Source: an uncultured Thermoplasmata archaeon
GTDB taxonomy: Archaea; Thermoplasmatota; Thermoplasmata; UBA10834
Direction of reading: 5' to 3'
Length of the DNA stretch: 64,000 nt
Assembly (NCBI GenBank): GCA_964644565.1
Contig: CAZXWO010000002.1
Location: 35,244 to 99,243 of the forward strand
A program made the translations under genes and the position numbers. Shown here in pieces: positions 67-35,869 of this stretch; the first letter of the stretch is position 1; every line of letters starts with the position of its first letter. The notes beneath the pieces were generated by a model. That model searched no databases. It saw nothing but the letters and a program-made list of their open reading frames with translations, and had not been told where the DNA came from.

Positions 67-966
67 TCAACACCAGATCCTCCTCTCCAGTACCTGGTCG
101 CTCGAGAAGTGGGGGACCTTGAGGTAGCTGCCAGCGAGGTCGCACACGGCGTCGAGCGGCATGAGGCCGATTATCTCGCCCTCGGCCACCTCGACCCCCA
201 TGGCGTCGGCCTCCTTCTGTATCTCGATGAACACCTTCGATATCGGCGTGACGGTGTAGTCGGTGAGGTTCATGGACACCTGGACCATGTGCTTGTCCCT
301 AAGGTGGAAGCCGAGAGCCTTGACGTGGGGCATCCCGCCGCTGCTCGCCCTTATCTTCTTCGCGATGGCCTTGGCGACCTCGACGTCCTCTGACCTGAGG
401 TTGACGTTGAAAGCGATCAGGGGCATCCTCGCGCCGACGGCGGTCGCTCCAGCGGTCGGGTGCAGGGCCCTCGGGCCGAAGTCGGGGTAGCGCGAGTCGT
501 CGGTGAGTATGGCCTCCCTGAGCCCCTCGAACTGCCCCTTCCTGACCGCCTCGAGGTTCCTCCTCTCCGGCCTCTTCGCGGCGGCCTCGTACAGGTACAC
601 GGGTATCTTCAGGTGCCTGGCGATCCTCGCCCCGACCCTGTTGGCTATCTCGACGCAGTCGTCCATGGTAGCGCCGGAGACCGGCACGAAAGGCAGGACG
701 TCCAGCGCCCCCATCCGCGGGTGCTCCCCCGTGTGCTTGGTCAGGTCTATGAGCTCCATGGCTGCCCGGGCGCCCCTGAACGCGCTCTCCTGGACGCTCT
801 CCTTGTTGCCCGTGAAAGTGACGACGCTCCTGTTGTGGTCGGGGTCGCTCTCGACGTCGAGCACCTTGGTGCCAGGCACCGACCTTATCGAGTGGACTAT
901 CTTGTCGACGACATCCTTCCTGCGCCCTTCGCTGAAGTTCGGGACGCACTCGATCACTGCCGCCAT
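67..966 (-). CDS. Glutamate formimidoyltransferase-like protein (FtcD N-terminal formiminotransferase domain)
   Basis: 299-aa ORF starting MAAVIECVPNFSEGR, the characteristic N-terminus of formiminotransferase domain proteins. The full-length ORF ends with a stop at 64-66. Confidence 0.7.
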   Translation of the reverse strand: MAAVIECVPNFSEGRRKDVVDKIVHSIRSVPGTKVLDVESDPDHNRSVVTFTGNKESVQESAFRGARAAMELIDLTKHTGEHPRMGALDVLPFVPVSGATMDDCVEIANRVGARIARHLKIPVYLYEAAAKRPERRNLEAVRKGQFEGLREAILTDDSRYPDFGPRALHPTAGATAVGARMPLIAFNVNLRSEDVEVAKAIAKKIRASSGGMPHVKALGFHLRDKHMVQVSMNLTDYTVTPISKVFIEIQKEADAMGVEVAEGEIIGLMPLDAVCDLAGSYLKVPHFSSDQVLERRIWC

Positions 967-1036
967 TCGACCAGCACCGGAGGTGGTGAATCTACTATCA
1001 TGCTCATATAATGAATCGTCGTCGCCCGCACGTCCC

Positions 1037-1552
1037 TCACTTCTTGATGACGTCGACGGCCGCGACCCTCTCGAGGACCAGCTCCTGCAGGCGGTCCTCC
1101 CTCACGGTCGACATCTCCTTCTCCGAGACGCCGAACCTGGCCAGCCTCTCCCTGTCGGGCGTCCCCTCCGAGGGCGGGAGGGGCGACCATCCCTTCCCCG
1201 GTCCGAAGGGTCCCTTGAGCACGGCGAGGACCACCCTGCGGGTCCCGTCGCCCACGGCCATCTTCCTTATGGCGCTCGACAGCTGCCTCTCGCCGGAGGC
1301 GTAGAGCAGCGTCTCCATCGCGAGCGAGTCGGAGGCGTTCCTGCCCTCGGCCGTGGCCTTCGCGGCGTGGTAGTGGGCGCTGACGACATGGTCTGCCCCG
1401 AAGACCATGTCCCCGTCCATCACGAGGACCTCCGAGGAGGACTCCGAGGCACTCGCCAGCACTTCCTCCATCGAGGCCTTCGCCTCGCCCTCGGCGACCT
1501 CCTTGGTCCACACCCTCGGTACCGTCCCACCGGGCCCTTCCATGTCGAACAC
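1037..1552 (-). CDS. cgi121: KEOPS complex subunit Cgi121
   Basis: 171 aa. Motifs LLYASGERQLSSAIRKMAVGDG..VVLAVL and C-terminal LVLERVAAVDVIKK align to archaeal Cgi121 (e.g. MJ0187: ILVRASGQRQIHEAIKIIGAKDG / VLEKIALIELKK). Confidence 0.6.
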   Translation of the reverse strand: MFDMEGPGGTVPRVWTKEVAEGEAKASMEEVLASASESSSEVLVMDGDMVFGADHVVSAHYHAAKATAEGRNASDSLAMETLLYASGERQLSSAIRKMAVGDGTRRVVLAVLKGPFGPGKGWSPLPPSEGTPDRERLARFGVSEKEMSTVREDRLQELVLERVAAVDVIKK

Positions 1553-1565
1553 CCCCGTCGCGGAC

Positions 1566-3737: not shown

Positions 3738-3800
3738 CCGAAGCACCTGTCTCCCTGTCCCGGCGGCGGCTCCGCGCGCCCGCCTACGAAATATGTGCAC

Positions 3801-3950
3801 TTATAAGGCCACGGGGCCCTGCCGTAAGTGCTCGGCCGGCCTCCCCCCGGGGACCGTTCCGCACACTGGCTGTGTTAACTGTATATGGTCTCACGGCGCA
3901 ACGCTTATCTAGCACAGGCTTAATAACTTTGACTAATACTGGTGTAACTG
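3801..3950. promoter_or_regulatory. Divergent promoter region between hel308 and lonB (TATA-like cttataag for hel308; ttaataac about 27-34 nt upstream of the lonB ATG, consistent with a leaderless transcript)
   Basis: AT-rich patches in an otherwise GC-rich genome, with archaeal TATA-like hexamers at the expected distance from the start codons. Confidence 0.4.
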
Positions 3951-5927
3951 ATGGGAAGCGCTGATTCCAGGAGGCCCGAGTTGGGCCTCCCTGACATTGA
4001 GGACTGGGTCAAAGCCCAGGCCTTCGAATCCACAGCAGACGTCAAGATCCCTCCGAAGCTGGTCGACCAGGTCATAGGCCAGGACGACGCGGTCAAGGTC
4101 ATCAAGAAGGCCGCGGAGCAGAAGAGGCACGTGATACTGATAGGCGACCCGGGGACAGGCAAGTCCATGCTCGCCCGGTCCATGGTGGACTACCTCCCGA
4201 AGGGGGAGCTCCAGGACGTCATCGCATACCACAACCCGGACGACCCGAACGAGCCCAAGATCCGCATAGTGCCGACCGGGAAGGGGAAGGAGATCGTCCA
4301 CGCCCAGAAGCAGGAGGCGGAGCAGAAGCGCGCTCAGAAGAACTCGTGGGTATTCATGCTCCTCTTCGTGTTCATAGGCCTCGCCGTGATCATGACCTAC
4401 CAGTTCGGGGACCCCGTGTACCTCCTGATCGGCCTGATCGGGGGCATGCTGCTCTTCATGATGTTCAGGTACACGGGCCAGCGCAAGGAGACCCTCTTGG
4501 TCCCCAAGCTGCTGATAACCCACAAGGCCACCGAGATGCCCCCGTTCATAGACGCGACGGGCGCCCACGCGGGCGCGCTGCTGGGGGACGTCAAGCACGA
4601 CCCGTTCCAGAGCGGCGGCCTCGAGACTCCGGCCCACGAGAGGCTGGAGCCAGGGGCGATACACAAGGCCAGCAAGGGCGTCCTGTTCATCGACGAGATC
4701 AACATGCTCAGGATCGAGAGCCAGCAGAGCCTCCTCACGGCCCTCCAGGAGGGCGAGTTCAGCATCCTGGGGCAGAGCGAGAGGAGCTCGGGGGCCATGG
4801 TCAAGAGCGAGCCCGTGCCGTGCGACTTCATACTGGTCGCGGCGGGCAACCTCGACGCGGTGGGCAGCATGCACCCGGCGCTCAGGTCCAGGATCAGGGG
4901 CTACGGGTACGAGGTGTACATGAGGAACACCATGCCCGACACTGCGGTCAACAGGACCAAGCTCATCACGTTCGTCGCCCAGGAGGTCTCCAAGGACAAG
5001 AAGATCCCCCACTTCGACAAGGCAGCGGTGGCGGAGATCGTCAGGGAGGCGCAGAGGCGCGCGGGCAGGAGGGGCATGCTGACCCTCAGGCTCAGGGAGC
5101 TCGGCGGCCTCGTGAGGGTCGCCGGCGACATCGCCATAGAGCGCGAGGCGAAGATAGTCGAGGCCAAGCACGTGCTCGAGGCGAAGAGCATCGCCAGGTC
5201 GTTGGAGCAGCAGGTGACCGACAGGGCCGTCGAGAGGCGGAAGGACTACAAGACCTGCCTCACGGAGGGCGCGGTTATCGGGATAGTGAACGGCCTCGCC
5301 GTCCTCAACTCCGACTCATCCATGGCGGAGTACTCAGGCATAGTCACGCCCATAGTAGCCGAGGTCACCCCGGCGCAGAACCGCGAGGGCGGCAAGATCA
5401 TAGCGACGGGCAAGCTGGGCGAGATAGCGAAGGAGTCCGTCCAGAACGTCTCCGCCCTGATCAAGAAGTACACCGGCGAGGACATCACGAACCACGACAT
5501 ACACGTGCAGTTCATAGGCACCTACGACGGCATCGAGGGGGACAGCGCCTCGATCGCGGTCGCCACGGCGGTCATATCCGCCTTCGAGGAGGTCGAGGTC
5601 GACCAGACCGTCACCATGACAGGGAGCCTGAGCGTCCGCGGGCAGGTCCTGCCGGTCGGCGGCGTCACCGCGAAGATCGAGGCCGCCGCGGAGATGGGCC
5701 TGAAGAAGGTCCTGATTCCCGAGCAGAACATGAAGGACGTCCTGCTGGAGGACAAGTACATCGGCAAGATCGAGGTCATCCCCGTGCGCCTCCTCAACGA
5801 CGTGCTGACGCACGCGCTCGTGGGCGCGAGGAAGGACGGCCTGCTGAAGAAGCTCGCGAGCCTGGTCGCTGCTAAGGCCGGCACGAAGCCAGGGCCCGTC
5901 CTCGGCGACAGGCCCGTGGTCCACTGA
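3951..5927 (+). CDS. lonB: Archaeal membrane-bound Lon protease (LonB)
   Basis: AAA+ Walker A GDPGTGKS; two TM helices inserted in the ATPase domain ([16 protein letters not shown].., [14 protein letters not shown]), typical of archaeal LonB; C-terminal protease domain with GDSAS catalytic serine. Confidence 0.9.
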
Positions 5928-14178: not shown

Positions 14179-17100
14179 CTACCAGCACTTGGAGTAGCCG
14201 CAGGTCCTGCACACGACGCACCCCTCGACGTACTCCACCATGCTCCCGCACTCCGGACACTCGGGGCACACGTCCCCCTTGTCCACGTGGTTCTGCTTCT
14301 CGACCGGGGCTGCGGCGACCCCGGCATCGACGGCGCTCTCGACCTTGGAGGTCTCGAAGTCCTTGACGAACCTCTCGAGCGCCTTGGCGACCGCGTCGCT
14401 GCAGGAGAGCACCATGCCCCCCGGCTGCCAGAGCGGGGAGGGGCACCGTATGCCCCTCAGCTGTTTCGCGATCGACTCGGGGTCTATGCCCGACCGCAGG
14501 GCGAGCGATATCAGCCTCCCCACGGCCTCCGACTGGGACGCGGTGCACCCTCCCGACTTCCCCATCTGGGTGAACACCTCGCACAGGCCCCTCTCGTCCA
14601 CGTTTATAGTCACATACAGGTGGCCGCAGCCCGTCTCCATCCTCTGGGTGGAGCCGCGCGTCACCATGGGCCTCTTCCGGGGGACCCTGGAGTCCGCCTC
14701 CGTCCCGGCCTCCTCCGGCGTCTTCTCCTTGTCGGCCCCGACGCTGAGGACCTGGTCCTCGCGGCTGCCGTACCTGTACACGGTCACGCCCTTGCAGCCG
14801 AGCTTGTAGGCGAGCATGTAGACGTCCTCGACGTCCTTCGGGGTCGCCTCGCTCGGGAAGTTGACGGTCTTGGAGACGGCATTGTCCGTGTGCTCCTGGA
14901 AGGCCGCCTGCATCTTGATGTGCCACTCGGGGGAGATGTCGAGGGCCGTGACGAATACCCTCTTGACGTCCTCGGGCACGCCTCGGACGTCCTTGACCGT
15001 CCCCTTGGCGGCGATCTCCTTCATGAGCTCGTCGGAGTGGAACCCCTTGGCCTTCGAGACCGCGTCGAATATCGGGTTGACCTCCGGGAGTATGTCCTTG
15101 TCCATGACATTGCGGACGTATGCGACGGCGAATATGGGCTCGACCCCGCTGGACGCCCCCGAGATTATGCTTATGGTCCCGGTCGGCGCGATGGTGGTGA
15201 CAGTCGCGTTCCTGAGCGCCCCGAACCTGCCCTTGAGGGTGCTGTCCTCGAAGTTGGGGAAGCTTCCCCGCTCCTTGGCGAGGGCGACGGAGGCCTTGTG
15301 CCCCTCCTCGTCCACGAAAGCCATTATCTTCCTGCCGATCTCGAGGGCGTCGTCGCTGTCGTATGGGGTGCCCATTGTCAGCAGCATGTCGGCGAAGCCC
15401 ATCACGCCCAGCCCGATCTTCCTGTTCGAGCGCGTCATGTCCGCGATCTGGGGCAGCGGGTACTTGTTGACGTCTATCACGTTGTCGAGGAACCGGACCG
15501 ACCAGTGGACCGTGTCCCTGAGCTTGTCCCAGTCGACCGAGTACTTCCCGGACTCGTAGGAGAGCATGTGGGCCAGGTTGATGGAACCGAGGTTGCACGA
15601 CTCGTAGGGGAGCAGGGGCTGCTCGCCGCACGGGTTGGTGCTCTCGATCTCCCCGACCTTCGGGGTGGGGTTGTCCCGGTTTATCCGGTCTATGAACACG
15701 ATCCCGGGCTCCCCGTTCCGCCAGGCCATGTTCACGATCATGTCGAAGACCTTGCGGGAGTCCAGCTTCGAGGCGGGCTGACCCTTCCTGGGGTTGACCA
15801 GGTCGTAGTCCGTGCCCTTCTCCACCGCCTCCATGAACTTGTCCGTCAGGGCGACCGAGATGTTGAAGTTGGTCAGCCTGGAGCTGTCCTTCTTGGCCGT
15901 GATGAACGACATTATGTCGGGGTGGTCGACGCGGAGTATGCCCATGTTGGCCCCCCGCCTCGTGCCTCCCTGCTTTATCGTCTCGGTGGCGGCGTTGAAC
16001 ACCTCCATGAAGGAGATGGGTCCGCTTGAGACGCCGGCGGTGCTCTTGACGGAGTCGTTCGCGGGCCTCAGCCTCGAGAAGCTGAACCCCGTCCCCCCGC
16101 CGCTGTTGTGCGACACGAAACCATTGGCGAGGTACGCGTGGCTGTTGGGGACGGTCAGGTCCACCACCTCCCTCCTCCCCGAGGGGAGGACGGCCTTGAC
16201 CTTCACCAGGAAGTGCCCTTCGTCGTCGGGCTCGGCGTGGTAGCGCCCCGCACCCTCGGCCTCGGCGACCATCCGGGGGGCCTCTGCCGCCCTCAGCCTC
16301 TCCGAGAGCACCTTCGAGTTGAAACCGACCTTCTCCTTGAAGCACTCGAACCCGGACGCAGTGCAGACTGTGAGCTTGGAGCCTTCCCTGACAGTCGGTA
16401 TGCCGACGTAGAACATCATCGTCTGCAGGTCCCTGGCGAGTCTCTCGGACGGCAGGTCCGCGGAGACCATGCCACCGGGGGAGACCCACCCGTGGTCGTC
16501 GAAGGTCCTCCTGAGGAACCCGCACAGGCCGGGCTCGTCCGCCCTTATGACCCTCTCGTCGACCCCCTGGGAGAACTCGATGGCCTCGTGGGGCACCTCT
16601 GCTTCGACCCCTCCCAGCCAGCCTCCGAGCTTCATGACCGCGGTGGAGCCCTCCCTGAGCTGCCCTATCTTCCTCCAGTCGAGGTCACCGCTGTCGGTCA
16701 TGACCAGCACCCTGTGCAGCGCGGTCCCGGTGATGGAGTACCCCTCCTCGGTCTCGACAGTGAAGACCTCTTGCGTCCCGTTCTCGTGCTTGTCCACGAC
16801 GGTCTCCATCCCCTCGTGCGTCTCGATCCACCCGCCGGCCGTGACGTCACCGAGGGTCATGCAACCCACGTCCGTCATCACCAGCGTCTCCGGGACGAGG
16901 CACTTGTGGATCAGGGCGGTGTACTTGACCGCGTCGAATATCTGTTCCATGGAGTCGCCTATCGGCAGGACGAAGCACGCTGATAGCTGGCCGAGCTCCC
17001 TGCCCGCGTTCATGAGGGTGGGGCTGTTCGGCATGAAATCGAGCCTGGCCATCATCTCGTAGAACTTCACGGCCGCCCTTTCGACCTCGGTCTCGCCGCC

Positions 17101-17328
17101 TCCGTAGTTGGCCTCGGCGGACGCGATGGCCCTGGCGACCCTCTCGAAGAGCTGGCGGGGCGTCTCGACGGGCTTCCCGTCGTCGTCCTTCCTGAGATAT
17201 CGGCGCTCAAGCACGGTTCTGGCATTGGAGCTGATCTGCGGTTCCAGGTCCCATCCTGAATTCGTCTTGAACTGTCTGTGCCCTGGGGCGACAGAGTCCC
17301 CTTGCCGATAGTTGGGTGTGCTTGACAT
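14179..17328 (-). CDS. nrdJ: Adenosylcobalamin-dependent (class II) ribonucleoside-triphosphate/diphosphate reductase, intein-containing, with C-terminal zinc ribbon
   Basis: RNR class II signature regions (NAGRELGQLSACFVLPI..., ...SGGGTGFSFSRLRP, CGEQPLLPYESCNLGSINL) and a C-terminal CPECPECG...CVVCRTCG zinc ribbon. 1049 aa, about 266 aa longer than expected because of an intein. Confidence 0.9.
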   Translation of the reverse strand: MSSTPNYRQGDSVAPGHRQFKTNSGWDLEPQISSNARTVLERRYLRKDDDGKPVETPRQLFERVARAIASAEANYGGGETEVERAAVKFYEMMARLDFMPNSPTLMNAGRELGQLSACFVLPIGDSMEQIFDAVKYTALIHKCLVPETLVMTDVGCMTLGDVTAGGWIETHEGMETVVDKHENGTQEVFTVETEEGYSITGTALHRVLVMTDSGDLDWRKIGQLREGSTAVMKLGGWLGGVEAEVPHEAIEFSQGVDERVIRADEPGLCGFLRRTFDDHGWVSPGGMVSADLPSERLARDLQTMMFYVGIPTVREGSKLTVCTASGFECFKEKVGFNSKVLSERLRAAEAPRMVAEAEGAGRYHAEPDDEGHFLVKVKAVLPSGRREVVDLTVPNSHAYLANGFVSHNSGGGTGFSFSRLRPANDSVKSTAGVSSGPISFMEVFNAATETIKQGGTRRGANMGILRVDHPDIMSFITAKKDSSRLTNFNISVALTDKFMEAVEKGTDYDLVNPRKGQPASKLDSRKVFDMIVNMAWRNGEPGIVFIDRINRDNPTPKVGEIESTNPCGEQPLLPYESCNLGSINLAHMLSYESGKYSVDWDKLRDTVHWSVRFLDNVIDVNKYPLPQIADMTRSNRKIGLGVMGFADMLLTMGTPYDSDDALEIGRKIMAFVDEEGHKASVALAKERGSFPNFEDSTLKGRFGALRNATVTTIAPTGTISIISGASSGVEPIFAVAYVRNVMDKDILPEVNPIFDAVSKAKGFHSDELMKEIAAKGTVKDVRGVPEDVKRVFVTALDISPEWHIKMQAAFQEHTDNAVSKTVNFPSEATPKDVEDVYMLAYKLGCKGVTVYRYGSREDQVLSVGADKEKTPEEAGTEADSRVPRKRPMVTRGSTQRMETGCGHLYVTINVDERGLCEVFTQMGKSGGCTASQSEAVGRLISLALRSGIDPESIAKQLRGIRCPSPLWQPGGMVLSCSDAVAKALERFVKDFETSKVESAVDAGVAAAPVEKQNHVDKGDVCPECPECGSMVEYVEGCVVCRTCGYSKCW
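16105..16902 (-). other. Mini-intein (266 aa) inserted in RNR between ALIHK and SGGGTGFSF
   Basis: Insertion begins with Cys (CLVPETLVMTDVGCMTL, block A), has a TxxH block B (GTALHRVLV), ends ...GFVSHN (block G His-Asn), and is followed by Ser+1. The flanking exteins re-join to the conserved RNR motif ALIHK-SGGGTGF. Confidence 0.75.
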
Positions 17329-18142: not shown

Positions 18143-19873
18143 ATGACTTCTCGAATACCTGCGAAATCCATGGTGGTTGTAGCCGCGTTCTTGGTGTCCG
18201 CGCTCCTCGTCCCTTCGGGGCCCGGCGAACGGACGGAGCCCCAGCTCGTCTCGACCACGTTGGCAGGCCCGCCCGTCGACTACGTCTACAGGAACTACTC
18301 TGAGATCAGGGACATCCTCCTGCAGACCGTCGCGGAGTATCCGGAGATAGCGGCGCTCCACGACATCGGGGACAGTTGGGAGAAGACCGCCGGCCTGGCG
18401 GACCGTGACATACTCGCGATCAAGATATCGGACAACGTGGACACCGAGGAGGACGAACCGGAGTTCCTCCTTCTCGCCCTGCATCACGCGCGCGAGTGGC
18501 CGACCTCGGAGACGGCGTTGAACGTCATCAAGAACATCACCGAGGGCTATGGCACCGACCCGAGGATAAGCTGGCTCGTCGACAACCGGGAGATATGGGT
18601 CGTGCCGGTCGTGAACCCGGACGGGCTCGACTTCGCCCTCACCGCCGACGACATGTGGAGGAAGAACAGGCGGGACAACATGGACGGGACCTTCGGCGTG
18701 GACCTCAACAGGAACTACAACGGGTCGGAGAACGGGGACCCCCTGGGGGCTTGGGGAGGCGCCGGCACGTCCGACCTCAACTACTCCGATGTGTACTGCG
18801 GCGAGGCGCCGTTCTCGGAGCCCGAGACGCAGGCCGTCCGGGACCTCTCCCGCGCGCACGACTTCCAGATCGCCTTCGACTTCCACACCTACGATGACTC
18901 GGTGATGTGGCCGTGGGGCTACACGGCGAATCTGACCGCGGACGACGAGCACTTCGTGGACATAGGCCATCAGCTCGCCTCCCTGAACGGCTATGCGGCC
19001 GCGCAGTCCGTGGACCTGTACGCCACGACCGGCGACTCTCTCGACTGGCTCTACGGAAGCCTGGGCATATTCGCGTTCCTCTTCGAGATGGGGGCGACCG
19101 AGTTCCACCCGGACTTCGAGGAGGACGTCCTGGAGATCGTCTACGAGAACTACGCGCCCACTCTCCTGGGCATAGAGCTGTGCGGCGACCGTTACCAGTC
19201 GCCATTCGAGATATCGCACGCGCCCCTGGGCGACTCGCCTTTCTCGGCGGCGGGCCACACCGTCTCCGCCGACATCACCGCGGGCAGGGGCGTGGATACG
19301 TCCAGCCCCAGGGTCGTCTACAGTGTTGACGGCGGTGCGTGGCAGGAGTCCCCCATGACCGGGGGTTCCTCCGGCGACACGTACGAGGGCACCATACCCT
19401 CGCAGGTGGCCGGGTCCGTCGTCGAGTACTACATATTCGCGGAGGACCTGGGCGCCGTGGAGCTCACCAGCCCGAGGTATGCCCCCTACGAGGTCTACTC
19501 GTTCTCGGTGACCGAGTCGCCGAACGACCCGCCCGTCGCGGATGCCGGCGCCGACGCCAGCACCCCGCTCGGAGGGGAGGTCGTGTTCGACTCATCCGGC
19601 TCTTCCGACGACGCGGGGATCGTGAGCTACACATGGACCTTCCTCTACAACGGTTCGGAGGTGTCGCTCGACGGCCCGTCCCCATCCTTCCGGTTCTGGA
19701 CGGAGGGGCTCTACACGGTCACGCTGAACGTCACGGACGCGCAGGGGGAGTACGACACCGACGTGATGGTCGTCTTCGTGGAGGGCACGGCGATACCCGA
19801 GTTCCCGACGGTACTGGTCCCGGTCGCGGCGCTGCTGGCGCTGTTCCTCGTCATTCGAGCGAGACGACCCTGA
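18143..19873 (+). CDS. Secreted M14-family zinc carboxypeptidase with PKD domain and PEF-CTERM archaeal sorting signal
   Basis: Signal peptide/TM at the N-terminus; M14 motifs LHHAREWPT (HxxE), NPDG, DLNRNY, FHTY; PKD-like segment (YTWTF...YTVTLNVTDAQGEYDT); C-terminus IPEFPTVLVPVAALLALFLVIRARRP (PEF motif + TM + basic tail). Confidence 0.8.
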   Translation: MTSRIPAKSMVVVAAFLVSALLVPSGPGERTEPQLVSTTLAGPPVDYVYRNYSEIRDILLQTVAEYPEIAALHDIGDSWEKTAGLADRDILAIKISDNVDTEEDEPEFLLLALHHAREWPTSETALNVIKNITEGYGTDPRISWLVDNREIWVVPVVNPDGLDFALTADDMWRKNRRDNMDGTFGVDLNRNYNGSENGDPLGAWGGAGTSDLNYSDVYCGEAPFSEPETQAVRDLSRAHDFQIAFDFHTYDDSVMWPWGYTANLTADDEHFVDIGHQLASLNGYAAAQSVDLYATTGDSLDWLYGSLGIFAFLFEMGATEFHPDFEEDVLEIVYENYAPTLLGIELCGDRYQSPFEISHAPLGDSPFSAAGHTVSADITAGRGVDTSSPRVVYSVDGGAWQESPMTGGSSGDTYEGTIPSQVAGSVVEYYIFAEDLGAVELTSPRYAPYEVYSFSVTESPNDPPVADAGADASTPLGGEVVFDSSGSSDDAGIVSYTWTFLYNGSEVSLDGPSPSFRFWTEGLYTVTLNVTDAQGEYDTDVMVVFVEGTAIPEFPTVLVPVAALLALFLVIRARRP

Positions 19874-26378: not shown

Positions 26379-26780
26379 ATGCACTTGACGATTCTCAAGA
26401 AGAAACCCTTCTCCGGGAACGCAGACTCCGAACCGAGGGAGACGATGGGAGCAGAGCAGTACATAGACCTGACCGACATGGTCTTCGAGGACGAGGGCGT
26501 CTTCGACACCGAGGGCGCGAAGACGGTCGTGAAGGTCGGCGAGATGTTCAGGTATGACGACCTGTCGAACCTGACGAGCCAGGTCTACAACGGGAACATC
26601 CTGATACTCGACTACACGTCGGTCGCCAACGACGACCTCACCATGAAGCGGCTGACGGCCGAGCTGAAGAACGTGGCCAGGGACGTGGACGGCGACGTCG
26701 CGGGCGTCGGCAAGAACCTGCTGATGGTCACCCCGAGAGGGATCAAGATCGACAGGAACAAGGTCAAGGGCGGCTTCTGA
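26379..26780 (+). CDS. sepF: Archaeal SepF-like cell-division protein
   Basis: EQYIDLTDMVFEDEG...KTVVKVGEMFRYDDLSNLTSQVYNGNILILDY...LLMVTPRGIKI resembles the SepF/DUF552 core. Confidence 0.55.
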   Translation: MHLTILKKKPFSGNADSEPRETMGAEQYIDLTDMVFEDEGVFDTEGAKTVVKVGEMFRYDDLSNLTSQVYNGNILILDYTSVANDDLTMKRLTAELKNVARDVDGDVAGVGKNLLMVTPRGIKIDRNKVKGGF

Positions 26781-30443: not shown

Positions 30444-30717
30444 GTCCCGCACCTCCACTTTCGACGATAACGGTTGTATATTAAGGTTGTGGGTCGGCGG
30501 CGGACCGTTTCCCGCGTATGCGAGCTTATATAATAAGCTCGTCCGCGCCATGGTAGGCCTTCGGGGAGAGTCAGTGACCTCTATCAGTCAAATTCTATTT
30601 ATATCCAGAAGGACTCTAACTATGTCAACACTGGTGCTTGGCCACCTGCGGTGCAAGGAACCCCACTTCATGCCGTATCACACGCTGAGTACTGCCGTCC
30701 CCTGAGGTGTTCATAGC

Positions 30718-33700
30718 TTGCAGAACGAACAAACGATCCACTGCCCGCTGTGCGGGAAGAAGGTCCCCGCCGATGTAGACACATGCCCGTTCTGTTCCAC
30801 CCCGATTGACAAGGTGGTCATGAAGCGCGAGCTGGACAAGGTCATCGAGCGCAGGGTGATGCGCAGGGTCCGCTCCTCGAAGGAGGAGGAGGCCCCGCCC
30901 GTGCCGGTCCCCACCGCTCCGATCCCGGAGGTGAAGGTGACCTGCCCGGGATGCGGCATGGAGCTCAAGGGCGGCGAGGCGAAGTGCACCAGGTGCGGGA
31001 TTCCGCTGGCCGCCGAGGAGGAGCTCGACGATTGCCCCGACTGCGGCACGCCTTTCGCACCCGGGGCGAAGGTCTGCCCCAAGTGCGGGGTCGCGCTGGG
31101 CGTGGAGGCGGACGTCGGGACGCTGGGTCCGTCGGAGGAGCACCCTCCGGAGAAGGCCGTCGAGGTCCCTGAGCGAGCGCAGACTGAGGTCGTCACGTCC
31201 GTCCAGGTCGAGCCGGGCCCGATGGGCCGCGGGCTCACCAACGGCAGGGGGGCCATAAACGGCACGGGCCTTGTGAACGGCACAGGGATGGTCAACGGCA
31301 CCAGGGGAGACGCCCACGGCGGCCCGTCGAGGCGGAGGGCCAGGGGGATCGCCCGTTGGCAGTTCCTGGCGGTGCTCGTGGCGCTCGTGATAATCATACC
31401 GACCTTCATCTACATGTCATACTCCAAGGATGACGACATCTACTCTGTCGACGGCGAGTTCGGCGAGTGGGACGACTCCACCCCGTACAGCATGTCGATA
31501 CTCACCACGACGCCCATAACCGTCGTCGAGGAGTGGTCCGTGGCCGTGGATGGCACGCGTGCGTTCCTGTACATAGACGCGACGGGTGACATCTTCGGGA
31601 CCACATCTGTCGAGAGCTTCTTCCTGTTCATCGACTCGGACGGCGACGAGACGACCGGGTACGCGGTCGGCTCGCTCGGCGCGGACTTCATGGTCGAGCT
31701 CGACGGCTGGAACGGCTCCGTCCAGTCCTCTGACGTCAGCGTCTACGACCCTGCGTCTGCGACGGACAGGTACGACTGGAACTCGTGGGAGTCCCTCGGG
31801 GGCGCCGCGAGCCGGCTCGTCGATGACAGGATGGAGGCGATGGGGAACCTCCAGGAGGCCCCGTCCGCGGACGCGAGGTTCCTCCTGCTCTCCCAGGACC
31901 AGCAGGCCAGACGTTCCGTGAGCGCCGGGGTTCCGTACGGGGGCAGCGTGCTGACGGTCACGCAGAGGCTCTCCTCGACCGTCCCGCTCTCGGGCGTCGT
32001 CCCAGTATCCGGCTCCGAGGCCATACTCACGCTCGAGTTCACATGCGACGGCGCCGAGGGCACCGTCGACTCCGTGGACGTGCAGCTGGAGAGCCTCCCA
32101 CCGGTGGTGAGCGCCTTCGAGGCCTTCACGATCCAGCCGGGCGAGGTCGTCACGGTCGACTTCGAGGTCGACACCTCCTCCCTATCGCCAGCACAGTTCG
32201 TCGCGGCCTCGGTCTCCGCGGCCGACATCTCGTCGAGCTTCACCAGGACCGAGGTCTTCGGACACCCCGCCAGGGCATATGTGGGCTCGGCACCGTCCTC
32301 GGTCATCATCGACGGGGCCTTCGGCGACTGGACCGGCAGGACGGCCTCGGACGTGGACCTGGTCGAGGTCCTGAACCCCAACATCGACATCCGCAGCGTG
32401 GGCGTGTTCAACACCAGCCTCTCCTCCTCGTTCTACATCAGCGTCGCGGGCGAGGTGTGCAGCGGCTCGTACGTGCCCGTCATGAAGGGCAAGCCCGTCC
32501 CGAGCAGCGGCGGGGGGACGGTCGTCCCGATAACCAGGAAGACCGCCGAGGACATCACGCGCGTATTCATAGACAGCGACATGTCGGCCGCCACCGGCTA
32601 CGCCCTATCGGTCGACTCCAAGGTCATAGGCGCGGACTACAGGATCGAGGTCCGCGGGCTCAACGGCGAGGTCGTGTCGTCGGTGCTGCACGAGTACACC
32701 GGGACGACCTGGTCCCTGGTGTCCGCCGACGTCCCCGCGGAGGTCGACTTCCAGAAGATGGAGGTCGGCGTCCTCGCGAACAACATTGGCGGCGCGGTGG
32801 ACATCGACTTCGTGATCGAGACGACCGACTGGAGGCAGTACAAGGACTACGTCGCGCTGGACGAGGCCACGATGCTGGCCCTGACGGGCGGGATATCCTC
32901 TTCGGTGGGCACGCTCGCATGGGCCGTGGACTCCGCGACCTCTGATGAGGCGACGTCGTCGTCGTTCCAGAGGAAGCTGTTCTACGACGGCACGAACTTC
33001 TGGAGCCTATACTACGACGGGTCACACACGATGTACAGGTACAGCTCCAACGGCGGCGTCAACTGGACCGACGGGGGACAGGTCTTCACCACCACCGGCG
33101 TCAAGCACGCGTCCCTGTGGTACGACTCCTCCGGCAGCGCGGTGTACGTGGTCGGGGACACGGGAGTGGCGTCGGTCAATGTGTTCGTTCGCAAGGGGTC
33201 GGTGACCCCGTCTTCCCACACGATCACGTGGGGGAACGAGAAGCTCCTCCCGATGTCCTCGAACCCCATGGCCGGGAAGTTCCCGTTCGCGTCCCTGGAT
33301 GCCGATGGATATGTCTGGGTGGTGTCGATCTCGAAGGTCCATGCCACCCAGGAACAGTACCGCTTCAGGTCGTTCGTGTCGGACGGCGTCGGTGACGTCG
33401 AGGGCACCTGGACGGACAAGGGCAACATAGTCAACCAGAACAAGGACTCCAGCCTCAGGGGCTGCCTCGTTCCCGGCCTGTCAGGGTCGGGCGTCGTGGT
33501 GTGGTCGGTGTTCACCTACCAGGGGATTGTTGGCTCCAGTGGGTACACGGGGACCGCCTGGTCCACCCCCGTCACGATCTACGCGGGGGGCGCGAGTGCG
33601 GACAACTCCCTGTACGCCCCCCCGTCGGCGGTCGTGGACAGCAGAGGGGTCGTGCACGTGGTCTACGGCACGGGGGACATGGCGGGGTCTGCCTGGGCCG

Positions 33701-34131
33701 CCAACATCCAGTATGTGTACAACACCTCCGCGGACACCTGGTCGACGCCCATCACGCTCAACGGCGTCGGGGGCGGCGCCCTGAAGTACCCGACGATATC
33801 CATGGACTCGACCACGGACAACGTGTTCGCCATGTGGGTCGACGACGGCATGAGCGCGGACAGCATCGTGGTCAAGAAGAACGCCTCGGGGACATGGTCC
33901 TTCCTCACCGTGGCCCAGACCTCGTACACGAAGACTTACCTGACGTCTATACTCTCGGCGCCCGGGGAGGCCTATGTCTGTTTCCAGTGGACCCAGAACA
34001 CCACCTCGCCGTACGAGGTGATGTTCGACAAGATCCCCGAGTTCACGGACGTGGTCGTGCCGGTCCTGTTCGTGCTGACGATGTTCATAGCCATCTACCG
34101 CAGGCGCTCCAGGCAGGAAGAGCCCGAGTGA
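30718..34131 (+). CDS. Large bitopic membrane protein: N-terminal cytoplasmic triple zinc-ribbon region, TM, about 860-aa extracellular domain with BNR/Asp-box-like repeats, C-terminal TM anchor
   Basis: CPLCGKK..CPFCST, CPGCG..CTRCG, CPDCG..CPKCG ribbons; TM WQFLAVLVALVIIIPTFIYM; repeats such as YSSNGGVNWTD, GTAWSTPVT, DTWSTPITL, SGTWSFLTV; C-terminal VVVPVLFVLTMFIAIYRRRSRQ. TTG start at 30718. Confidence 0.7.
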   Translation: MQNEQTIHCPLCGKKVPADVDTCPFCSTPIDKVVMKRELDKVIERRVMRRVRSSKEEEAPPVPVPTAPIPEVKVTCPGCGMELKGGEAKCTRCGIPLAAEEELDDCPDCGTPFAPGAKVCPKCGVALGVEADVGTLGPSEEHPPEKAVEVPERAQTEVVTSVQVEPGPMGRGLTNGRGAINGTGLVNGTGMVNGTRGDAHGGPSRRRARGIARWQFLAVLVALVIIIPTFIYMSYSKDDDIYSVDGEFGEWDDSTPYSMSILTTTPITVVEEWSVAVDGTRAFLYIDATGDIFGTTSVESFFLFIDSDGDETTGYAVGSLGADFMVELDGWNGSVQSSDVSVYDPASATDRYDWNSWESLGGAASRLVDDRMEAMGNLQEAPSADARFLLLSQDQQARRSVSAGVPYGGSVLTVTQRLSSTVPLSGVVPVSGSEAILTLEFTCDGAEGTVDSVDVQLESLPPVVSAFEAFTIQPGEVVTVDFEVDTSSLSPAQFVAASVSAADISSSFTRTEVFGHPARAYVGSAPSSVIIDGAFGDWTGRTASDVDLVEVLNPNIDIRSVGVFNTSLSSSFYISVAGEVCSGSYVPVMKGKPVPSSGGGTVVPITRKTAEDITRVFIDSDMSAATGYALSVDSKVIGADYRIEVRGLNGEVVSSVLHEYTGTTWSLVSADVPAEVDFQKMEVGVLANNIGGAVDIDFVIETTDWRQYKDYVALDEATMLALTGGISSSVGTLAWAVDSATSDEATSSSFQRKLFYDGTNFWSLYYDGSHTMYRYSSNGGVNWTDGGQVFTTTGVKHASLWYDSSGSAVYVVGDTGVASVNVFVRKGSVTPSSHTITWGNEKLLPMSSNPMAGKFPFASLDADGYVWVVSISKVHATQEQYRFRSFVSDGVGDVEGTWTDKGNIVNQNKDSSLRGCLVPGLSGSGVVVWSVFTYQGIVGSSGYTGTAWSTPVTIYAGGASADNSLYAPPSAVVDSRGVVHVVYGTGDMAGSAWAANIQYVYNTSADTWSTPITLNGVGGGALKYPTISMDSTTDNVFAMWVDDGMSADSIVVKKNASGTWSFLTVAQTSYTKTYLTSILSAPGEAYVCFQWTQNTTSPYEVMFDKIPEFTDVVVPVLFVLTMFIAIYRRRSRQEEPE

Positions 34132-34190
34132 GAGTGGTGCCCGGTATCGGACTTGAGGTTCCAGAGTTTAAATAACGGAGATGCTATTTC

Positions 34191-35024
34191 ATGTCGATGA
34201 TGGAAGCCGCGGAGAGCAGGGACATCTTCCTGAGCTGCTTCAAGTGCGGGAGGATAGTCAGGTCGAGCGATGCGGAGTGCCCCAGGTGCGGCCTGCAGTT
34301 CGGCCCCGGGACCCTGTTCGAGTGCCCGTTCTGCTCCGGGCTCATATGGCGCAACGCCACCAAGTGCGCCTCCTGCGGCATAGACCTGACGGAGTTCTCG
34401 GAGAGCGTCATGAGGACCAGCTCCGGCTTCGACATGGACAACTTCGTCGACGGCATCATCAACAACGAGCTCGACCAGCTCAAGTCCACGATCCGCAGGG
34501 TCGCGTGCCCGGGCTGCGGCCTCATGATCAGGGGCGACGAGGACAAGTGCCCCAGGTGCGACCTCCCCCTCGAGGAGGCGAAGGTCGACTGCCCCGTGTG
34601 CGGGGAGAGGATATCCATATCCGCGAAGTCGTGCGGCAGCTGCCAGGCCGTGTTCGAGGAGCTGCCCGAGGCCGAGGAGTCCCTGGCGGCCGAGGAGCCG
34701 CAGGCGGTCGTGCATGCGGAGGCGGAGCCTGCCCCGGACGAGGGGCCGGAGGCGGAGGAGCCGCCGGCGGGGGCGCCCCCAGCACCAGTGAGGAAGGCAC
34801 CCCCGAAGCGCCCCGTGCAGAGGCCCAAGGTCGCGAAGAAGCCTGTGGCGAAGCCGGCGCCCAAGAGGGCCCCGGCCAAGAAGGCCCCGCCGAAGAAGGT
34901 GCCAGCGAAGAAGGCCGTCGCGAAGAGGCCTGCGGCGAAGGCGCCTGCCAGGCGGCCGGCCAAGGCCAAGCCGGCGAAGAAGGCGCCACCCAAGGCGTCC
35001 AAGCCCAAGAAGCGCAAGCGGTGA
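34191..35024 (+). CDS. Multi-zinc-ribbon protein with Lys/Pro/Ala-rich basic C-terminal tail
   Basis: Five CxxC...CxxCG ribbons, an acidic linker, then about 75 aa of (A/P)KK(A/P) repeats ending KPKKRKR (histone H1-like tail). Confidence 0.65.
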   Translation: MSMMEAAESRDIFLSCFKCGRIVRSSDAECPRCGLQFGPGTLFECPFCSGLIWRNATKCASCGIDLTEFSESVMRTSSGFDMDNFVDGIINNELDQLKSTIRRVACPGCGLMIRGDEDKCPRCDLPLEEAKVDCPVCGERISISAKSCGSCQAVFEELPEAEESLAAEEPQAVVHAEAEPAPDEGPEAEEPPAGAPPAPVRKAPPKRPVQRPKVAKKPVAKPAPKRAPAKKAPPKKVPAKKAVAKRPAAKAPARRPAKAKPAKKAPPKASKPKKRKR

Positions 35025-35095
35025 CCCGCGGACGGTTCTCAGCTGTGCGAGTCCGCTGCAACGCATTATATATGGGCAGGCCGATAATGTGAAGC

Positions 35096-35503
35096 ATGGC
35101 CGACCAGTCTCCCCCGGTCTTCGTCCTGGCATGCGTCTCGTGCGGCAAGACCGTGTCCGGGTCGGAGGCCAAGTGCCCCCGGTGCGGGGCCTCCTTCGAA
35201 GACATGTGTTTCGAGTGCCCGTTCTGCGGGGACATCGTCTCCGCGGGGCAGTCGCGTTGCGACAAGTGCGGCACCGAGTTCTCGATATTCGCCGAGGCCG
35301 TCGACGAGGCCTCCTCGCTGGAGCTCGACGGCCCAGTGGACAGCGCCCCCCTTGCCGAGGTCGTCGAAGCTGCAGCCCCTGCCGAGCCGGTGCAGGCGGC
35401 TGAGGCGGCGGAGACGTCGGACTACGAGTGCCCCGCCTGCGGGAAGCCCGTGGGGGAGAAGGACGAGCAGTGCCCCCACTGCGGTGCGCGTTTCTCAGAA
35501 TGA
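35096..35503 (+). CDS. Multi-zinc-ribbon protein (double zinc ribbon, DZR-like)
   Basis: CVSCG..CPRCG, CFECPFCG..CDKCG, CPACG..CPHCG ribbons separated by an acidic linker. Confidence 0.6.
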   Translation: MADQSPPVFVLACVSCGKTVSGSEAKCPRCGASFEDMCFECPFCGDIVSAGQSRCDKCGTEFSIFAEAVDEASSLELDGPVDSAPLAEVVEAAAPAEPVQAAEAAETSDYECPACGKPVGEKDEQCPHCGARFSE

Positions 35504-35510
35504 GGGTCGT

Positions 35511-35585
35511 GGGGCCGGGACCGGGAATCGAACCCGGGTCAAGGGATCCACAGTCCCCAAGGATACCACTACCCCACCCCGGCCA
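35511..35585 (-). tRNA. tRNA-His (anticodon GUG) with encoded G-1 and 3' CCA
   Basis: Reverse complement folds as G-1 + acceptor GCCGGGG/TCCCGGC (one G-U), anticodon stem GGGGA/TCCCT with loop CUGUGGA (GUG), T arm CCGGG-TTCGATT-CCCGG, discriminator C, CCA encoded. Confidence 0.8.
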
Positions 35586-35737: not shown

Positions 35738-35869
35738 ATGGACGGCAGCATGCGCAGGGACGAGGACGTGAGGACCACCAGGCGGTGCCCGGAGTGCGGG
35801 GGGCCGATCGCCTGCATGTCCGGCTGCGAGGCGTGCCTCTCCTGCGGGCAGTCGCGGTGCGCGGGATGA
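35738..35869 (+). CDS. Small cysteine-rich (8 Cys) putative zinc-binding protein, 43 aa
   Basis: MDGSMRRDEDVRTTRRCPECGGPIACMSGCEACLSCGQSRCAG; preceded by gagggga RBS-like sequence. Short ORF, weak evidence. Confidence 0.3.
   Translation: MDGSMRRDEDVRTTRRCPECGGPIACMSGCEACLSCGQSRCAG

What the first reader, a model, noticed from the sequence alone, without database searches (positions are those of the whole stretch)
30718..35503. Three tandem multi-zinc-ribbon proteins: surface-exposed BNR-like giant, basic KPA-tailed protein, acidic DZR protein
Three consecutive same-strand genes all carry repeated CxxC-x(9-12)-CPxCG zinc-ribbon (double-zinc-ribbon-like) modules. Gene 1 (1137 aa) has cytoplasmic ribbons, a TM, about 860 extracellular residues with BNR/Asp-box-like repeats, and a C-terminal TM anchor. 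Gene 2 has five ribbons then a histone-H1-like (A/P)KK tail. Gene 3 has ribbons and an acidic linker. The cluster ends 8 nt before the 3' end of a tRNA-His. This architecture (membrane sensor with intracellular Zn ribbons plus soluble Zn-ribbon partners, one with a nucleic-acid-binding tail) is not explained by any well-characterised archaeal system. It could be a signalling or envelope-to-nucleoid coupling module.
Basis: partly seen in the sequence, partly recalled or inferred. Interest (0 to 1): 0.7.

Follow-up and report, generated by a model that had tools for sequence, protein, structure and literature searches.

The report
Three paralogous archaeal zinc-ribbon genes
Three neighbouring genes in an uncultured Thermoplasmata archaeon are copies of one zinc-binding module, one of them fused to a large sugar-binding cell-surface protein; they form a real but uncharacterised lineage-specific family, and nothing shows that they work together as a signalling machine.

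Summary
The three genes exist as described, with small corrections: gene 2 has four ribbons, not five, and the gap to tRNA-His is 6 nt. All three pass Pfam's double-zinc-ribbon threshold.

They are paralogues of one module. Gene 3 aligns end to end with gene 2, and gene 1's N-terminus aligns with gene 2 residues 38-161.

Gene 2 is the ancestral, slowly evolving member (70-97% identity, similar to RtcB). It stands alone at this locus in outgroup genomes.

Gene 1 is that module joined through a conserved NGxG repeat and a membrane helix to an ectodomain. The ectodomain holds two CBM9-like sandwiches, an Ig-like domain and a sialidase-like propeller. It ends in a PEF-CTERM-like archaeosortase signal rather than a plain anchor.

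Genes 2 and 3 each have their own conserved TATA box. Gene 1 has a Shine-Dalgarno site and a conserved TTG start. The trio lies in a syntenic block conserved in about 40 species. Gene 1 is missing from one such locus, and its paralogues occur alone elsewhere.

The clustering is best explained by tandem duplication. Functional coupling is possible but not shown. This is an uncharacterised family of moderate interest.

The parts
30598..30604 (+). TATA-like box (TTTATAT) in the RtcB/g1 divergent intergenic region; candidate g1 promoter, which would give a leader of about 90 nt
   Evidence: Sequence; function inferred only
30704..30709 (+). Shine-Dalgarno-like GAGGTG, 8 nt before the TTG start of g1
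   Evidence: GAGGTG followed by TTG is conserved in most orthologous loci (31 of 47 first-ribbon contexts have an SD-like site plus a start codon; 30 of those starts are TTG)
30718..34131 (+). g1: 1137-aa membrane protein (cytoplasmic Zn-ribbon module, NGxG repeat, TM, ectodomain, PEF-CTERM-like tail)
30742..31086 (+). g1 cytoplasmic module: ribbon 9-26, helical/disordered linker, double zinc ribbon 76-123. Homologous to g2 residues 38-161
   Evidence: Pfam DZR 46.1 bits on the isolated N-terminus; hhalign g1N against g2 core 99.75%, E 1.9e-27; BLASTP 2e-13
31219..31305 (+). Juxtamembrane hexapeptide repeat G-[LM]-[VT]-N-G-[TR], about 5 copies. It is the most conserved segment of g1, is predicted disordered, and its function is unknown
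   Evidence: Majority-residue frequency 0.72 against 0.5-0.6 elsewhere; pLDDT about 31; no family hit
31354..31425 (+). TM1 (signal-anchor; N-terminus inside by the positive-inside rule: RRRARGIAR before it, KDDD after it)
31429..31992 (+). D1: CBM9-like beta-sandwich
31993..32283 (+). D2: Ig-like beta-sandwich
   Evidence: All-beta, pLDDT above 90; Ig/FN3-type matches
32284..32943 (+). D3: second CBM9-like beta-sandwich, a duplicate of D1 with a Gly-rich loop insert
32944..34017 (+). D4: sialidase/BNR-like beta-propeller (about 7 four-stranded blades by strand count) with one canonical Asp-box (S776-W783) and degenerate GTW[ST] motifs
   Evidence: Foldseek against PDB: 4irt 6e-10, 5muk 7e-10, NanB and Neu2 about 1e-9 to 1e-8; motifs
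34030..34131 (+). PEF-CTERM-like tail: KIPEF, then a TM helix, then RRRSR. Probably an archaeosortase sorting signal
   Evidence: TIGR03024 is the best hit at 17.1 bits (cut-off 23); IPEF is nearly invariant in 76 homologues; the same tail sits on unrelated secreted proteins
34167..34174 (+). g2 TATA box (TTTAAATA), at -30 to -23 from the ATG at 34197, which implies a leaderless g2 mRNA
   Evidence: A TATA-like octamer lies at a fixed distance in 37 of 43 distinct upstream regions, against 14 of 1060 random windows
34191..35024 (+). g2: soluble protein with four Zn ribbons (probable start 34197). Core residues 16-151 (34236-34643), acidic/Pro-rich linker, polybasic K/P/A tail 190-277 (34758-35021)
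35065..35072 (+). g3 TATA box (ATTATATA), at -31 to -24 from the ATG, which implies a leaderless g3 mRNA
   Evidence: 40 of 41 distinct upstream regions carry the box at a fixed distance
35096..35503 (+). g3: 135-aa acidic paralogue of g2. Double ribbon 13-58, acidic linker 65-108, ribbon 112-129; no basic tail
   Evidence: BLASTP g2 against g3 6e-18, collinear over 131 residues; hhalign 99.6%, E 6.5e-25; alignment of 33 orthologues
35510..35583 (-). tRNA-His(GTG), convergent with g3. It is conserved at this position in all 14 related loci tested

Best explanation
The locus holds three separately transcribed paralogues of one Thermoplasmata-specific cytoplasmic module: two double zinc ribbons joined by a short helix. 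They arose by tandem duplication inside a conserved syntenic block and are not an operon.

g2 is the ancestral soluble form. It has four ribbons, an acidic/proline-rich disordered linker and a polybasic tail. I infer that it acts as an adaptor: the strongly constrained ribbon core holds a conserved cytoplasmic partner, and the tail binds a polyanion. Nucleic acid is the most likely polyanion; the anionic inner face of the membrane is the alternative.

g3 is a duplicate that lost one ribbon and the basic tail. I infer that it binds the same partner without the tail function, as a modulator or competitor.

g1 is the same module (without the first ribbon) fused through a conserved NGxG repeat and a signal-anchor helix to an ectodomain of about 870 residues. 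The ectodomain has two CBM9-like sandwiches, an Ig-like domain and a BNR/sialidase-like propeller, and ends in a PEF-CTERM-like signal. I read g1 as a low-abundance glycan-binding, possibly glycan-processing, surface protein. It would be held by its N-terminal helix and, after archaeosortase processing, by a C-terminal lipid, and it would display a g2-type module on the cytoplasmic side.

Shown here: gene structure, homology among the three modules, predicted folds, promoter signals, synteny and its exceptions.
Inferred: glycan binding, archaeosortase processing, the role of the tail, and any shared partner.
For: - Ribbons.
- Paralogy: g2 against g3 BLASTP 6e-18 and hhalign 99.6%; g1 N-terminus against g2 hhalign 99.75%.
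- An exhaustive HMM search with the g2 core finds 1200-1300-aa g1-type proteins whose first 150 residues match the whole four-ribbon core. In P0246 and P0257 this is followed by an RKLK-type motif, NGxG repeats and a TM helix.
- g2 is ancestral and constrained: 70-97% identity across 43 species-level loci, against about 43% for g1 and about 55% for g3. g2 is alone at the locus in L048-L050 and still has a basic tail there.
- Separate transcription units: position-fixed TATA boxes in 37/43 (g2) and 40/41 (g3) upstream regions, against 14/1060 in controls; SD plus TTG for g1.
- PEF-CTERM-like tail. ArtC recognises PEF-CTERM (PMC5244752).
Against: - No experiment or characterised homologue exists, so every functional step is inference.
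- The PEF tail scores below the curated cut-off (17.1 against 23 bits), and no archaeosortase gene was found in the window.
- An N-terminal cytoplasmic domain is atypical for archaeosortase substrates.
- No oligo-T terminators are visible between the genes, so read-through co-transcription cannot be excluded.
- The trio stays together in loci where insertions broke the downstream synteny (L006, L009, L022, L031), which also fits selection for linkage.
- hhalign and BLAST statistics on Cys-rich repeats may be inflated, although non-Cys positions also align.
Confidence: 0.55

Rival explanations
1. One reading: the trio is one functional unit. g1 senses something outside the cell. Its cytoplasmic ribbons dock or release the soluble ribbon proteins g2 and g3. 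g2's basic tail then acts on the nucleoid (transmembrane signalling, or envelope-to-nucleoid coupling).
For: The three cytoplasmic modules are homologous, so heteromeric contacts or competition for one partner are plausible. Adjacency holds in about 40 species-level genomes, including loci with downstream insertions. g2 has a pI-12 tail and g3 an acidic linker. The juxtamembrane NGxG repeat of g1 is highly conserved and could be a docking site.
Against: The genes have separate conserved promoters. The whole neighbourhood is syntenic, so adjacency is not specific. g2 occurs without g1 and g3 in L048-L050, and g2 plus g3 occur without g1 in L046. g1 paralogues stand alone, as does a second-tier g2-like gene. 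Evolutionary rates are discordant. No known signalling domain is present.
Confidence: 0.15
2. Divisome model: the g2-type multi-ribbon module is the Thermoplasmata counterpart of haloarchaeal CdpC, a zinc-ribbon protein that tethers FtsZ1 to the membrane. g2 would be a peripheral tether that binds the membrane through its basic tail. g1 would be an integral version linking the division or growth zone to envelope assembly.
For: The 2026 preprint 10.64898/2026.07.16.738847 reports remote CdpC homologues with multiple zinc ribbons in all classes of Thermoplasmatota. g3 has a ribbon / disordered linker / ribbon layout like CdpC. In g1-type paralogues the basic RKLK motif lies just before the NGxG repeat and TM helix, as expected if the tail acts at the membrane. 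SepF lies four genes upstream in the same conserved block.
Against: No DUF7093 (the CdpC family) hit appeared among the matches listed for g1N, g2, g3 or eight second-tier homologues (some lists were cut at the best 25). SepF is separated from the trio by three genes on mixed strands. K/P/A-rich tails are more typical of nucleic-acid binders.
Confidence: 0.1
3. g1 is chiefly an extracellular enzyme (a glycoside hydrolase or polysaccharide lyase of the sialidase/GH145/PL24-25 propeller type) with CBM9-like targeting modules. The cytoplasmic ribbons would be incidental.
For: The best structural matches are propeller enzymes: a putative neuraminidase 4irt, the glycoside hydrolase BT3686 (5muk; GH145 from my own knowledge), NanB, Neu2 and ulvan lyases. 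CBM9-like modules typically accompany glycanases. Invariant polar residues in the propeller (Q751, R752, D757, K854, K1072) could form an active site.
Against: No Pfam or NCBIfam sialidase, BNR or glycoside-hydrolase model matches. Only one Arg is invariant in the propeller, so a GH33 Arg triad is not conserved. Sequence identity to the structural hits is 10-13%. Propellers of this type are also non-catalytic binders. The cytoplasmic module and NGxG repeat are conserved and therefore not incidental.
Confidence: 0.2
4. g1 is the S-layer protein, or the main structural envelope protein, of these archaea.
For: It has a large all-beta ectodomain with a C-terminal archaeosortase-type signal, as in haloarchaeal S-layer glycoproteins.
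Against: The conserved TTG start argues against very high expression. Two or more paralogues occur per genome. It has an N-terminal cytoplasmic domain instead of a signal peptide. No S-layer family matches.
Confidence: 0.05

Closest known systems
Pfam DZR (PF12773) double zinc ribbon, and small CPxCG-related zinc-finger proteins of haloarchaea (Brz, HVO_2753)
   Same: The same CxxC-x(n)-C(P)xCG ribbon units. All three genes pass the DZR threshold. g3 is a small soluble multi-ribbon protein like the haloarchaeal ones (PMC2253796).
   Different: g2 and g3 are larger (135-277 aa, 3-4 ribbons in a fixed order with a conserved inter-ribbon helix). They form their own tightly conserved Thermoplasmata family. 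The Brz and HVO_2753 models score below threshold.
CdpC (HVO_0399, DUF7093), the zinc-ribbon membrane anchor of FtsZ1 in Haloferax volcanii (bioRxiv 10.64898/2026.07.16.738847)
   Same: Ribbon domains separated by a disordered linker, and a membrane-associated function carried out by ribbon proteins. The preprint notes remote multi-ribbon relatives in Thermoplasmatota.
   Different: No DUF7093 match was detected. No N-terminal amphipathic helix is evident. CdpC has 2 ribbons and a 243-residue linker, and evolves fast, whereas the g2 core is extremely conserved.
PEF-CTERM / archaeosortase C substrates (TIGR03024), with PGF-CTERM / ArtA substrates as the studied example
   Same: A C-terminal three-part signal (IPEF motif, hydrophobic helix, Arg cluster) on a large secreted domain. 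The signal is shared with other secreted proteins of the same genomes.
   Different: Scores fall below the curated cut-offs. g1 carries an N-terminal cytoplasmic domain and a signal-anchor instead of a cleavable signal peptide, so it would remain anchored at both ends. No archaeosortase gene was identified here.
GH33 sialidases and other BNR-type propellers (Neu2, NanB, BACOVA_03493 4irt, BT3686 5muk)
   Same: Predicted beta-propeller fold with an Asp-box.
   Different: 10-13% identity, no HMM match, no conserved Arg triad, and only one canonical Asp-box.
CBM9 (Thermotoga maritima Xyn10A, 1i82) and the DOMON / EbdC-like sandwich superfamily
   Different: 12% identity and no Pfam CBM9 hit. The domain is duplicated and combined with an Ig-like domain and a propeller. 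The ligand is unknown.
Bacterial single-pass proteins with an N-terminal cytoplasmic zinc ribbon and an extracellular domain (for example TcaA)
   Same: The layout: cytoplasmic ribbon, one TM helix, large ectodomain. There are weak NCBIfam hits to the TcaA ribbon.
   Different: The match covers the ribbon only (E about 1e-3). The ectodomains are unrelated, and the resemblance is partly recalled from my own knowledge.

Membership tests
Pfam DZR (PF12773) | HMM score above the gathering cut-off (27.3 bits) over two consecutive CxxC...CxxC ribbons | tested here: met
   35.4 (g1), 37.1 (g2) and 35.1 (g3) bits; 46.1 bits for the isolated g1 N-terminus
PEF-CTERM sorting domain (TIGR03024) / ArtC substrates | C-terminal PEF motif followed by a hydrophobic helix and a basic cluster | tested here: met
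   KIPEF-TDVVVPVLFVLTMFIAIY-RRRSR. I1106, P1107, E1108 and F1109 are invariant or nearly so in 76 homologues
PEF-CTERM sorting domain (TIGR03024) / ArtC substrates | HMM score at or above the curated cut-off (23 bits) | tested here: not met
   17.1 bits, E 0.0047, the best family for the tail. Orthologue tails score 10-24 bits to PEF- or PEFG-CTERM, all below cut-off
PEF-CTERM sorting domain (TIGR03024) / ArtC substrates | The genome encodes an archaeosortase, and several proteins share the signal | tested here: inconclusive
   Several proteins share the tail: an M14 peptidase-PKD protein at window 18143-19873 (20.9 bits) and ORFs in L022 and L050. None of the multi-TM ORFs of the window that were scanned is an archaeosortase. 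Whole genomes could not be scanned
GH33 sialidase / BNR propeller | Beta-propeller fold | tested here: met
   Foldseek probability 1.00, E 6e-10 to 1e-8, against sialidase-type propellers. This rests on a predicted structure with pLDDT above 90 in the region
GH33 sialidase / BNR propeller | Repeated Asp-boxes (SxDxGxTW) | tested here: inconclusive
   One canonical box (S776-W783; family consensus SxDxGxTW) plus about four degenerate GTW[ST] motifs
GH33 sialidase / BNR propeller | Catalytic Arg triad, a Tyr/Glu nucleophile pair, and a sequence-model match | tested here: not met
   R752 is the only invariant Arg in the propeller. No sialidase or BNR Pfam/NCBIfam hit at E up to 1
CBM9 | Fold similarity, and a sequence-model match | tested here: inconclusive
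CdpC / DUF7093 | Match to the DUF7093 model | tested here: not met
   Absent from the matches listed for g1, g2 and g3, for fragments at E up to 10 (only the best 25 matches are shown) and for eight second-tier homologues
CdpC / DUF7093 | Binds FtsZ1 and localises to midcell; N-terminal amphipathic helix binds the membrane | not testable with these tools
   Needs experiments, or a complex prediction with the cognate FtsZ
Histone H1-like Hc2 (PF07382 / NF038052) | HMM score above the cut-off | tested here: not met
   19.1 bits against 40 (Pfam) and 11.9 against 135 (NCBIfam). The resemblance is compositional only
Operon / single transcription unit | No internal promoters; overlapping or tightly coupled genes | tested here: not met
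   Gaps of 59 and 71 nt, each holding a position-fixed TATA box conserved across loci. Read-through is not excluded

The most novel reading that the evidence does not exclude
The g2-type four-ribbon module is the Thermoplasmata equivalent of the haloarchaeal FtsZ anchor CdpC. g2 would tether a cytoskeletal or divisome partner to the membrane through its basic tail, and g3 would modulate it. g1 and its paralogues would be integral-membrane versions that physically couple this cytoplasmic machinery to an archaeosortase-processed, glycan-binding surface protein, so linking division or growth sites to envelope assembly.
Probability: 0.12. Interest if true: 0.75.

Novelty: new variant of a known kind. 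Interest (0 to 1): 0.4.

Why it matters
Thermoplasmata of this clade are uncultured, and almost nothing is known about their envelope or their small zinc-ribbon proteins.

The analysis defines a lineage-specific superfamily: a four-ribbon core conserved as strongly as RtcB, an acidic linker and a basic tail. The superfamily has soluble members and members fused to surface proteins. That gives a concrete pair of proteins in which the same module can be compared free and membrane-tethered.

If the module binds a cytoskeletal or nucleoid partner, g1-type proteins would be a simple physical link between the cell surface and the cell interior in archaea.

g1 would also be an unusual archaeosortase substrate, because it would stay anchored at both ends.

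If none of this holds, the result is still useful. It corrects the annotation (PEF-CTERM-like tail, CBM9-like and propeller domains, four ribbons) and shows that the clustering comes from duplication rather than operon organisation.

Tried and rejected
- Sequence searches of g1 and g2 profiles against PDB chains returned only generic ribbon hits with E above 1e-3.
- Pfam and NCBIfam gave nothing for the g1 ectodomain or the NGxG repeat.
- Looking up the window's own contig through P0001 failed; it is not on record.
- The search for an archaeosortase among multi-TM ORFs of the window found a Ca/Na antiporter, two MFS transporters and a DUF1614 protein instead.
- The DUF7093/CdpC test was negative.
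- Cluster look-ups for second-tier homologues gave no organism names and inconsistent automatic names: rubrerythrin, RpoP, Spt4, DUF1610. I disregard those names.
- Rejected: the g2 tail as a true Hc2/H1 homologue (below cut-off). Rejected: g1 as an S-layer protein (TTG start, paralogues, cytoplasmic domain). Rejected: 'five ribbons' in g2.

Full report
OBSERVATION

The window has 62-68% G+C and looks like ordinary chromosomal context.

Regex and Pfam analysis confirm the CxxC-x10-11-CxxC ribbons: three in g1, four in g2 (not five) and three in g3. DZR scores of 35-37 bits exceed the 27.3-bit cut-off.

g1 has two hydrophobic helices whose flanking charges place the N-terminus and the extreme C-terminus in the cytoplasm. 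tRNA-His(GTG) lies convergent at 35510-35583, 6 nt beyond the g3 stop.

WHAT g1 IS

g1 belongs to a family of about 140 proteins of 1000-1300 aa. Every named source is an uncultured Thermoplasmata/Thermoplasmatota MAG, and none carries an informative name.

An AlphaFold2 model built on 76 homologues has mean pLDDT 82, with the ectodomain mostly above 90. The layout is as follows.
- Cytoplasmic part: one ribbon, a linker, then a double ribbon (to about residue 125). A disordered stretch follows, containing five G-[LM]-[VT]-N-G-[TR] hexapeptides (168-196).
- That repeat is the most conserved segment of the whole protein and matches no known family.
- D2 is Ig-like.
- D4 (743-1100) is a propeller whose best PDB matches are sialidase-type enzymes (4irt, 5muk, NanB, Neu2; E 6e-10 to 1e-8).
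- The family consensus has one perfect Asp-box (SxDxGxTW at 776-783) and several degenerate GTW[ST] motifs. No sialidase or BNR model matches, and only one Arg is invariant in the propeller. I therefore do not call it a sialidase.

The C-terminus reads KIPEF, then a helix, then RRRSR. IPEF is invariant or nearly so across the family. The tail's best NCBIfam match is the archaeal PEF-CTERM sorting domain, at 17.1 bits against a cut-off of 23. Orthologue tails hit PEF- or PEFG-CTERM at 10-24 bits.

A six-frame scan of the window and all fetched loci for this tail pattern found only the g1 family plus three unrelated secreted-looking proteins. One of them is an M14 carboxypeptidase-PKD protein at window 18143-19873. 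PEF-CTERM is the signal recognised by archaeosortase C (PMC5244752). ArtA substrates are cleaved and lipid-anchored (cited in PMC9385802).

So the 'C-terminal anchor' is most likely a sorting signal. No archaeosortase gene was found in the window.

WHAT g2 AND g3 ARE

The first 155 residues of g2 are extraordinarily conserved, with 73 invariant positions in 40 sequences. The tail varies in length but is always basic.

Across 43 species-level loci from GTDB genomes, g2 is 70-97% identical to the window copy. In the same genomes RtcB and OTCase are about 75-80% identical, g3 about 55% and g1 about 43%.

g3 aligns collinearly with g2 over its full length (BLASTP 6e-18; hhalign 99.6%). The match includes non-cysteine positions such as FECPFC and the F(S/A)E.V...S..LD helix. 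g3 lacks one ribbon and the basic tail.

The g1 N-terminus aligns with g2 residues 38-161 (hhalign 99.75%; BLASTP 2e-13).

An exhaustive HMM search of 1.8 billion cluster representatives with the g2 core gave three tiers of result.
- One cluster holds all g2 orthologues.
- About 25 second-tier representatives of 220-315 aa match the full four-ribbon core. The eleven of these read in full also have an acidic/Pro-rich linker and a C-terminal R-K-L-K-A-K-P-type motif.
- Several 1200-1300-aa g1-type proteins match the entire core with their first 150 residues. In the two read in full (P0246, P0257) an RKLK-type motif, NGxG repeats and a TM helix follow.

The named members of the second-tier family are again Thermoplasmata MAGs. 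One of its members lies in an unrelated gene context.

The three window genes are therefore paralogues of one module, and g1-type proteins are fusions of that module to a surface protein.

GENOMIC ORGANISATION

The block KaiC-like ATPase, HD, RtcB(-), g1, g2, g3, tRNA-His(-), OTCase, RecJ-like(-) is conserved in most of the roughly 45 related loci that span it. Adjacency is therefore weak evidence of functional linkage.

Informative exceptions:
- L048-L050 come from more distant genomes (flanking genes about 46-69% identical). They have only g2 between RtcB and tRNA-His, and g2 keeps a basic tail there.
- L046 has g2 and g3 but no g1.
- g1 paralogues P0078, P0064 and P0096 stand alone, two of them in genomes that also carry the trio.
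- Insertions occur between tRNA-His and OTCase in L006, L009, L022 and L031.

g2 and g3 each have a TATA-like octamer at a fixed distance upstream: 37/43 and 40/41 distinct upstream regions, against 14/1060 random windows. In the window the boxes lie at -30 to -23 from the ATG at 34197 and at -31 to -24 from the ATG at 35096. That implies leaderless mRNAs.

g1 instead has GAGGTG 8 nt before a TTG start that is conserved in nearly all orthologues. This suggests a leadered, weakly initiated message. I saw no oligo-T terminators between the genes, so read-through is not excluded.

MECHANISM

Best-supported reading, with the inferred steps marked:
- g2 is the ancestral soluble adaptor. Its ribbon core binds a conserved partner, and its tail binds a polyanion (inferred).
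- g3 is a tail-less duplicate (shown) that may modulate g2 (inferred).
- g1 is a low-abundance glycan-binding surface protein. It would be anchored by TM1 and, after archaeosortase processing, by a lipid (inferred from folds and tail). It displays a g2-like module and a conserved NGxG segment to the cytoplasm (shown).
- The clustering is explained by tandem duplication.

A further lead is CdpC, a zinc-ribbon FtsZ1 membrane anchor of Haloferax. Its authors report remote multi-ribbon relatives in all Thermoplasmatota classes. SepF lies four genes upstream here. However, no DUF7093 match was found. I keep this as the most novel reading not excluded by the evidence.

COMPARISON AND NOVELTY

Each part belongs to a known kind: DZR ribbons, a CBM9-like sandwich, a BNR-type propeller, and a PEF-CTERM-like tail.

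New here are three things:
- a strongly conserved four-ribbon-plus-basic-tail family restricted to Thermoplasmata;
- its fusion through an NGxG repeat to a surface protein that would be anchored at both ends;
- the tandem arrangement of fused, full and truncated copies.

No characterised member exists. I rate it a new variant of known kinds, of moderate interest (0.4).

Noticed in passing
window 35738-35869 (+): A fourth conserved Cys-rich micro-ORF (MDGSMRRDEDVRTTRRCPECGGPIACMSGCEACLSCGQSRCAG) lies between tRNA-His and OTCase. Its core CPECGG-x6-SGC-x2-C-x2-CG-x-S-x-C is found by tblastn just upstream of OTCase in more than 40 related loci, including the outgroup L048-L050. The same motif ends the 1049-aa protein at window 14179-17328(-), which is probably a class II ribonucleotide reductase.
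   Followed up: partly
window 18143-19873 (+): A secreted M14 zinc carboxypeptidase with a PKD domain and the same IPEF-TM-RARR tail (TIGR03024 20.9 bits). It is a second candidate archaeosortase substrate in the window.
   Followed up: partly
window 31219-31305 (g1 residues 168-196): A cytoplasmic juxtamembrane hexapeptide repeat, G-[LM]-[VT]-N-G-[TR] in about 5 copies. It is the most conserved part of g1, is predicted disordered, and matches no family. Longer versions occur in the 1260-1300-aa paralogues. It remains unexplained.
   Followed up: partly
window 30704-30720, and orthologous loci: The g1 start codon is TTG, preceded by GAGGTG, in almost all orthologues. The stand-alone paralogues (L002, L004, L007) start with ATG.
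   Followed up: partly
P0242-P0266 (second-tier homologues); P0246 and P0257 (g1-type paralogues): Distant g2-like proteins end in a conserved short motif, R-K-L-K-[AT]-K-P. The fused paralogues have an RKLK-type motif before their NGxG repeats and TM helix. It may be a specific linear motif rather than a generic basic tail.
   Followed up: no
L006, L009/L025, L022, L031 (between tRNA-His and OTCase): Extra genes are inserted just downstream of tRNA-His in several genomes, including a PEF-tailed 618-aa ORF in L022. This fits the tRNA gene acting as an integration hot spot.
   Followed up: no
L011:10-657 against 814-4239: In one contig g2 lies on the opposite strand to g1 at the contig edge. 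This is either a local inversion or an assembly artefact.
   Followed up: no
window about 26440-26780 (+): A SepF cell-division gene (Pfam SepF 48.4 bits) belongs to the same conserved block, four genes upstream of g1. A KaiC/RadA-like ATPase, an HD protein and RtcB lie in between.
   Followed up: partly
window 34191 against 34197: The TATA position and the database entry P0121 (275 aa) indicate that g2 starts at the third codon of the ORF as listed (MMEAAES...), which gives a leaderless mRNA.
   Followed up: yes
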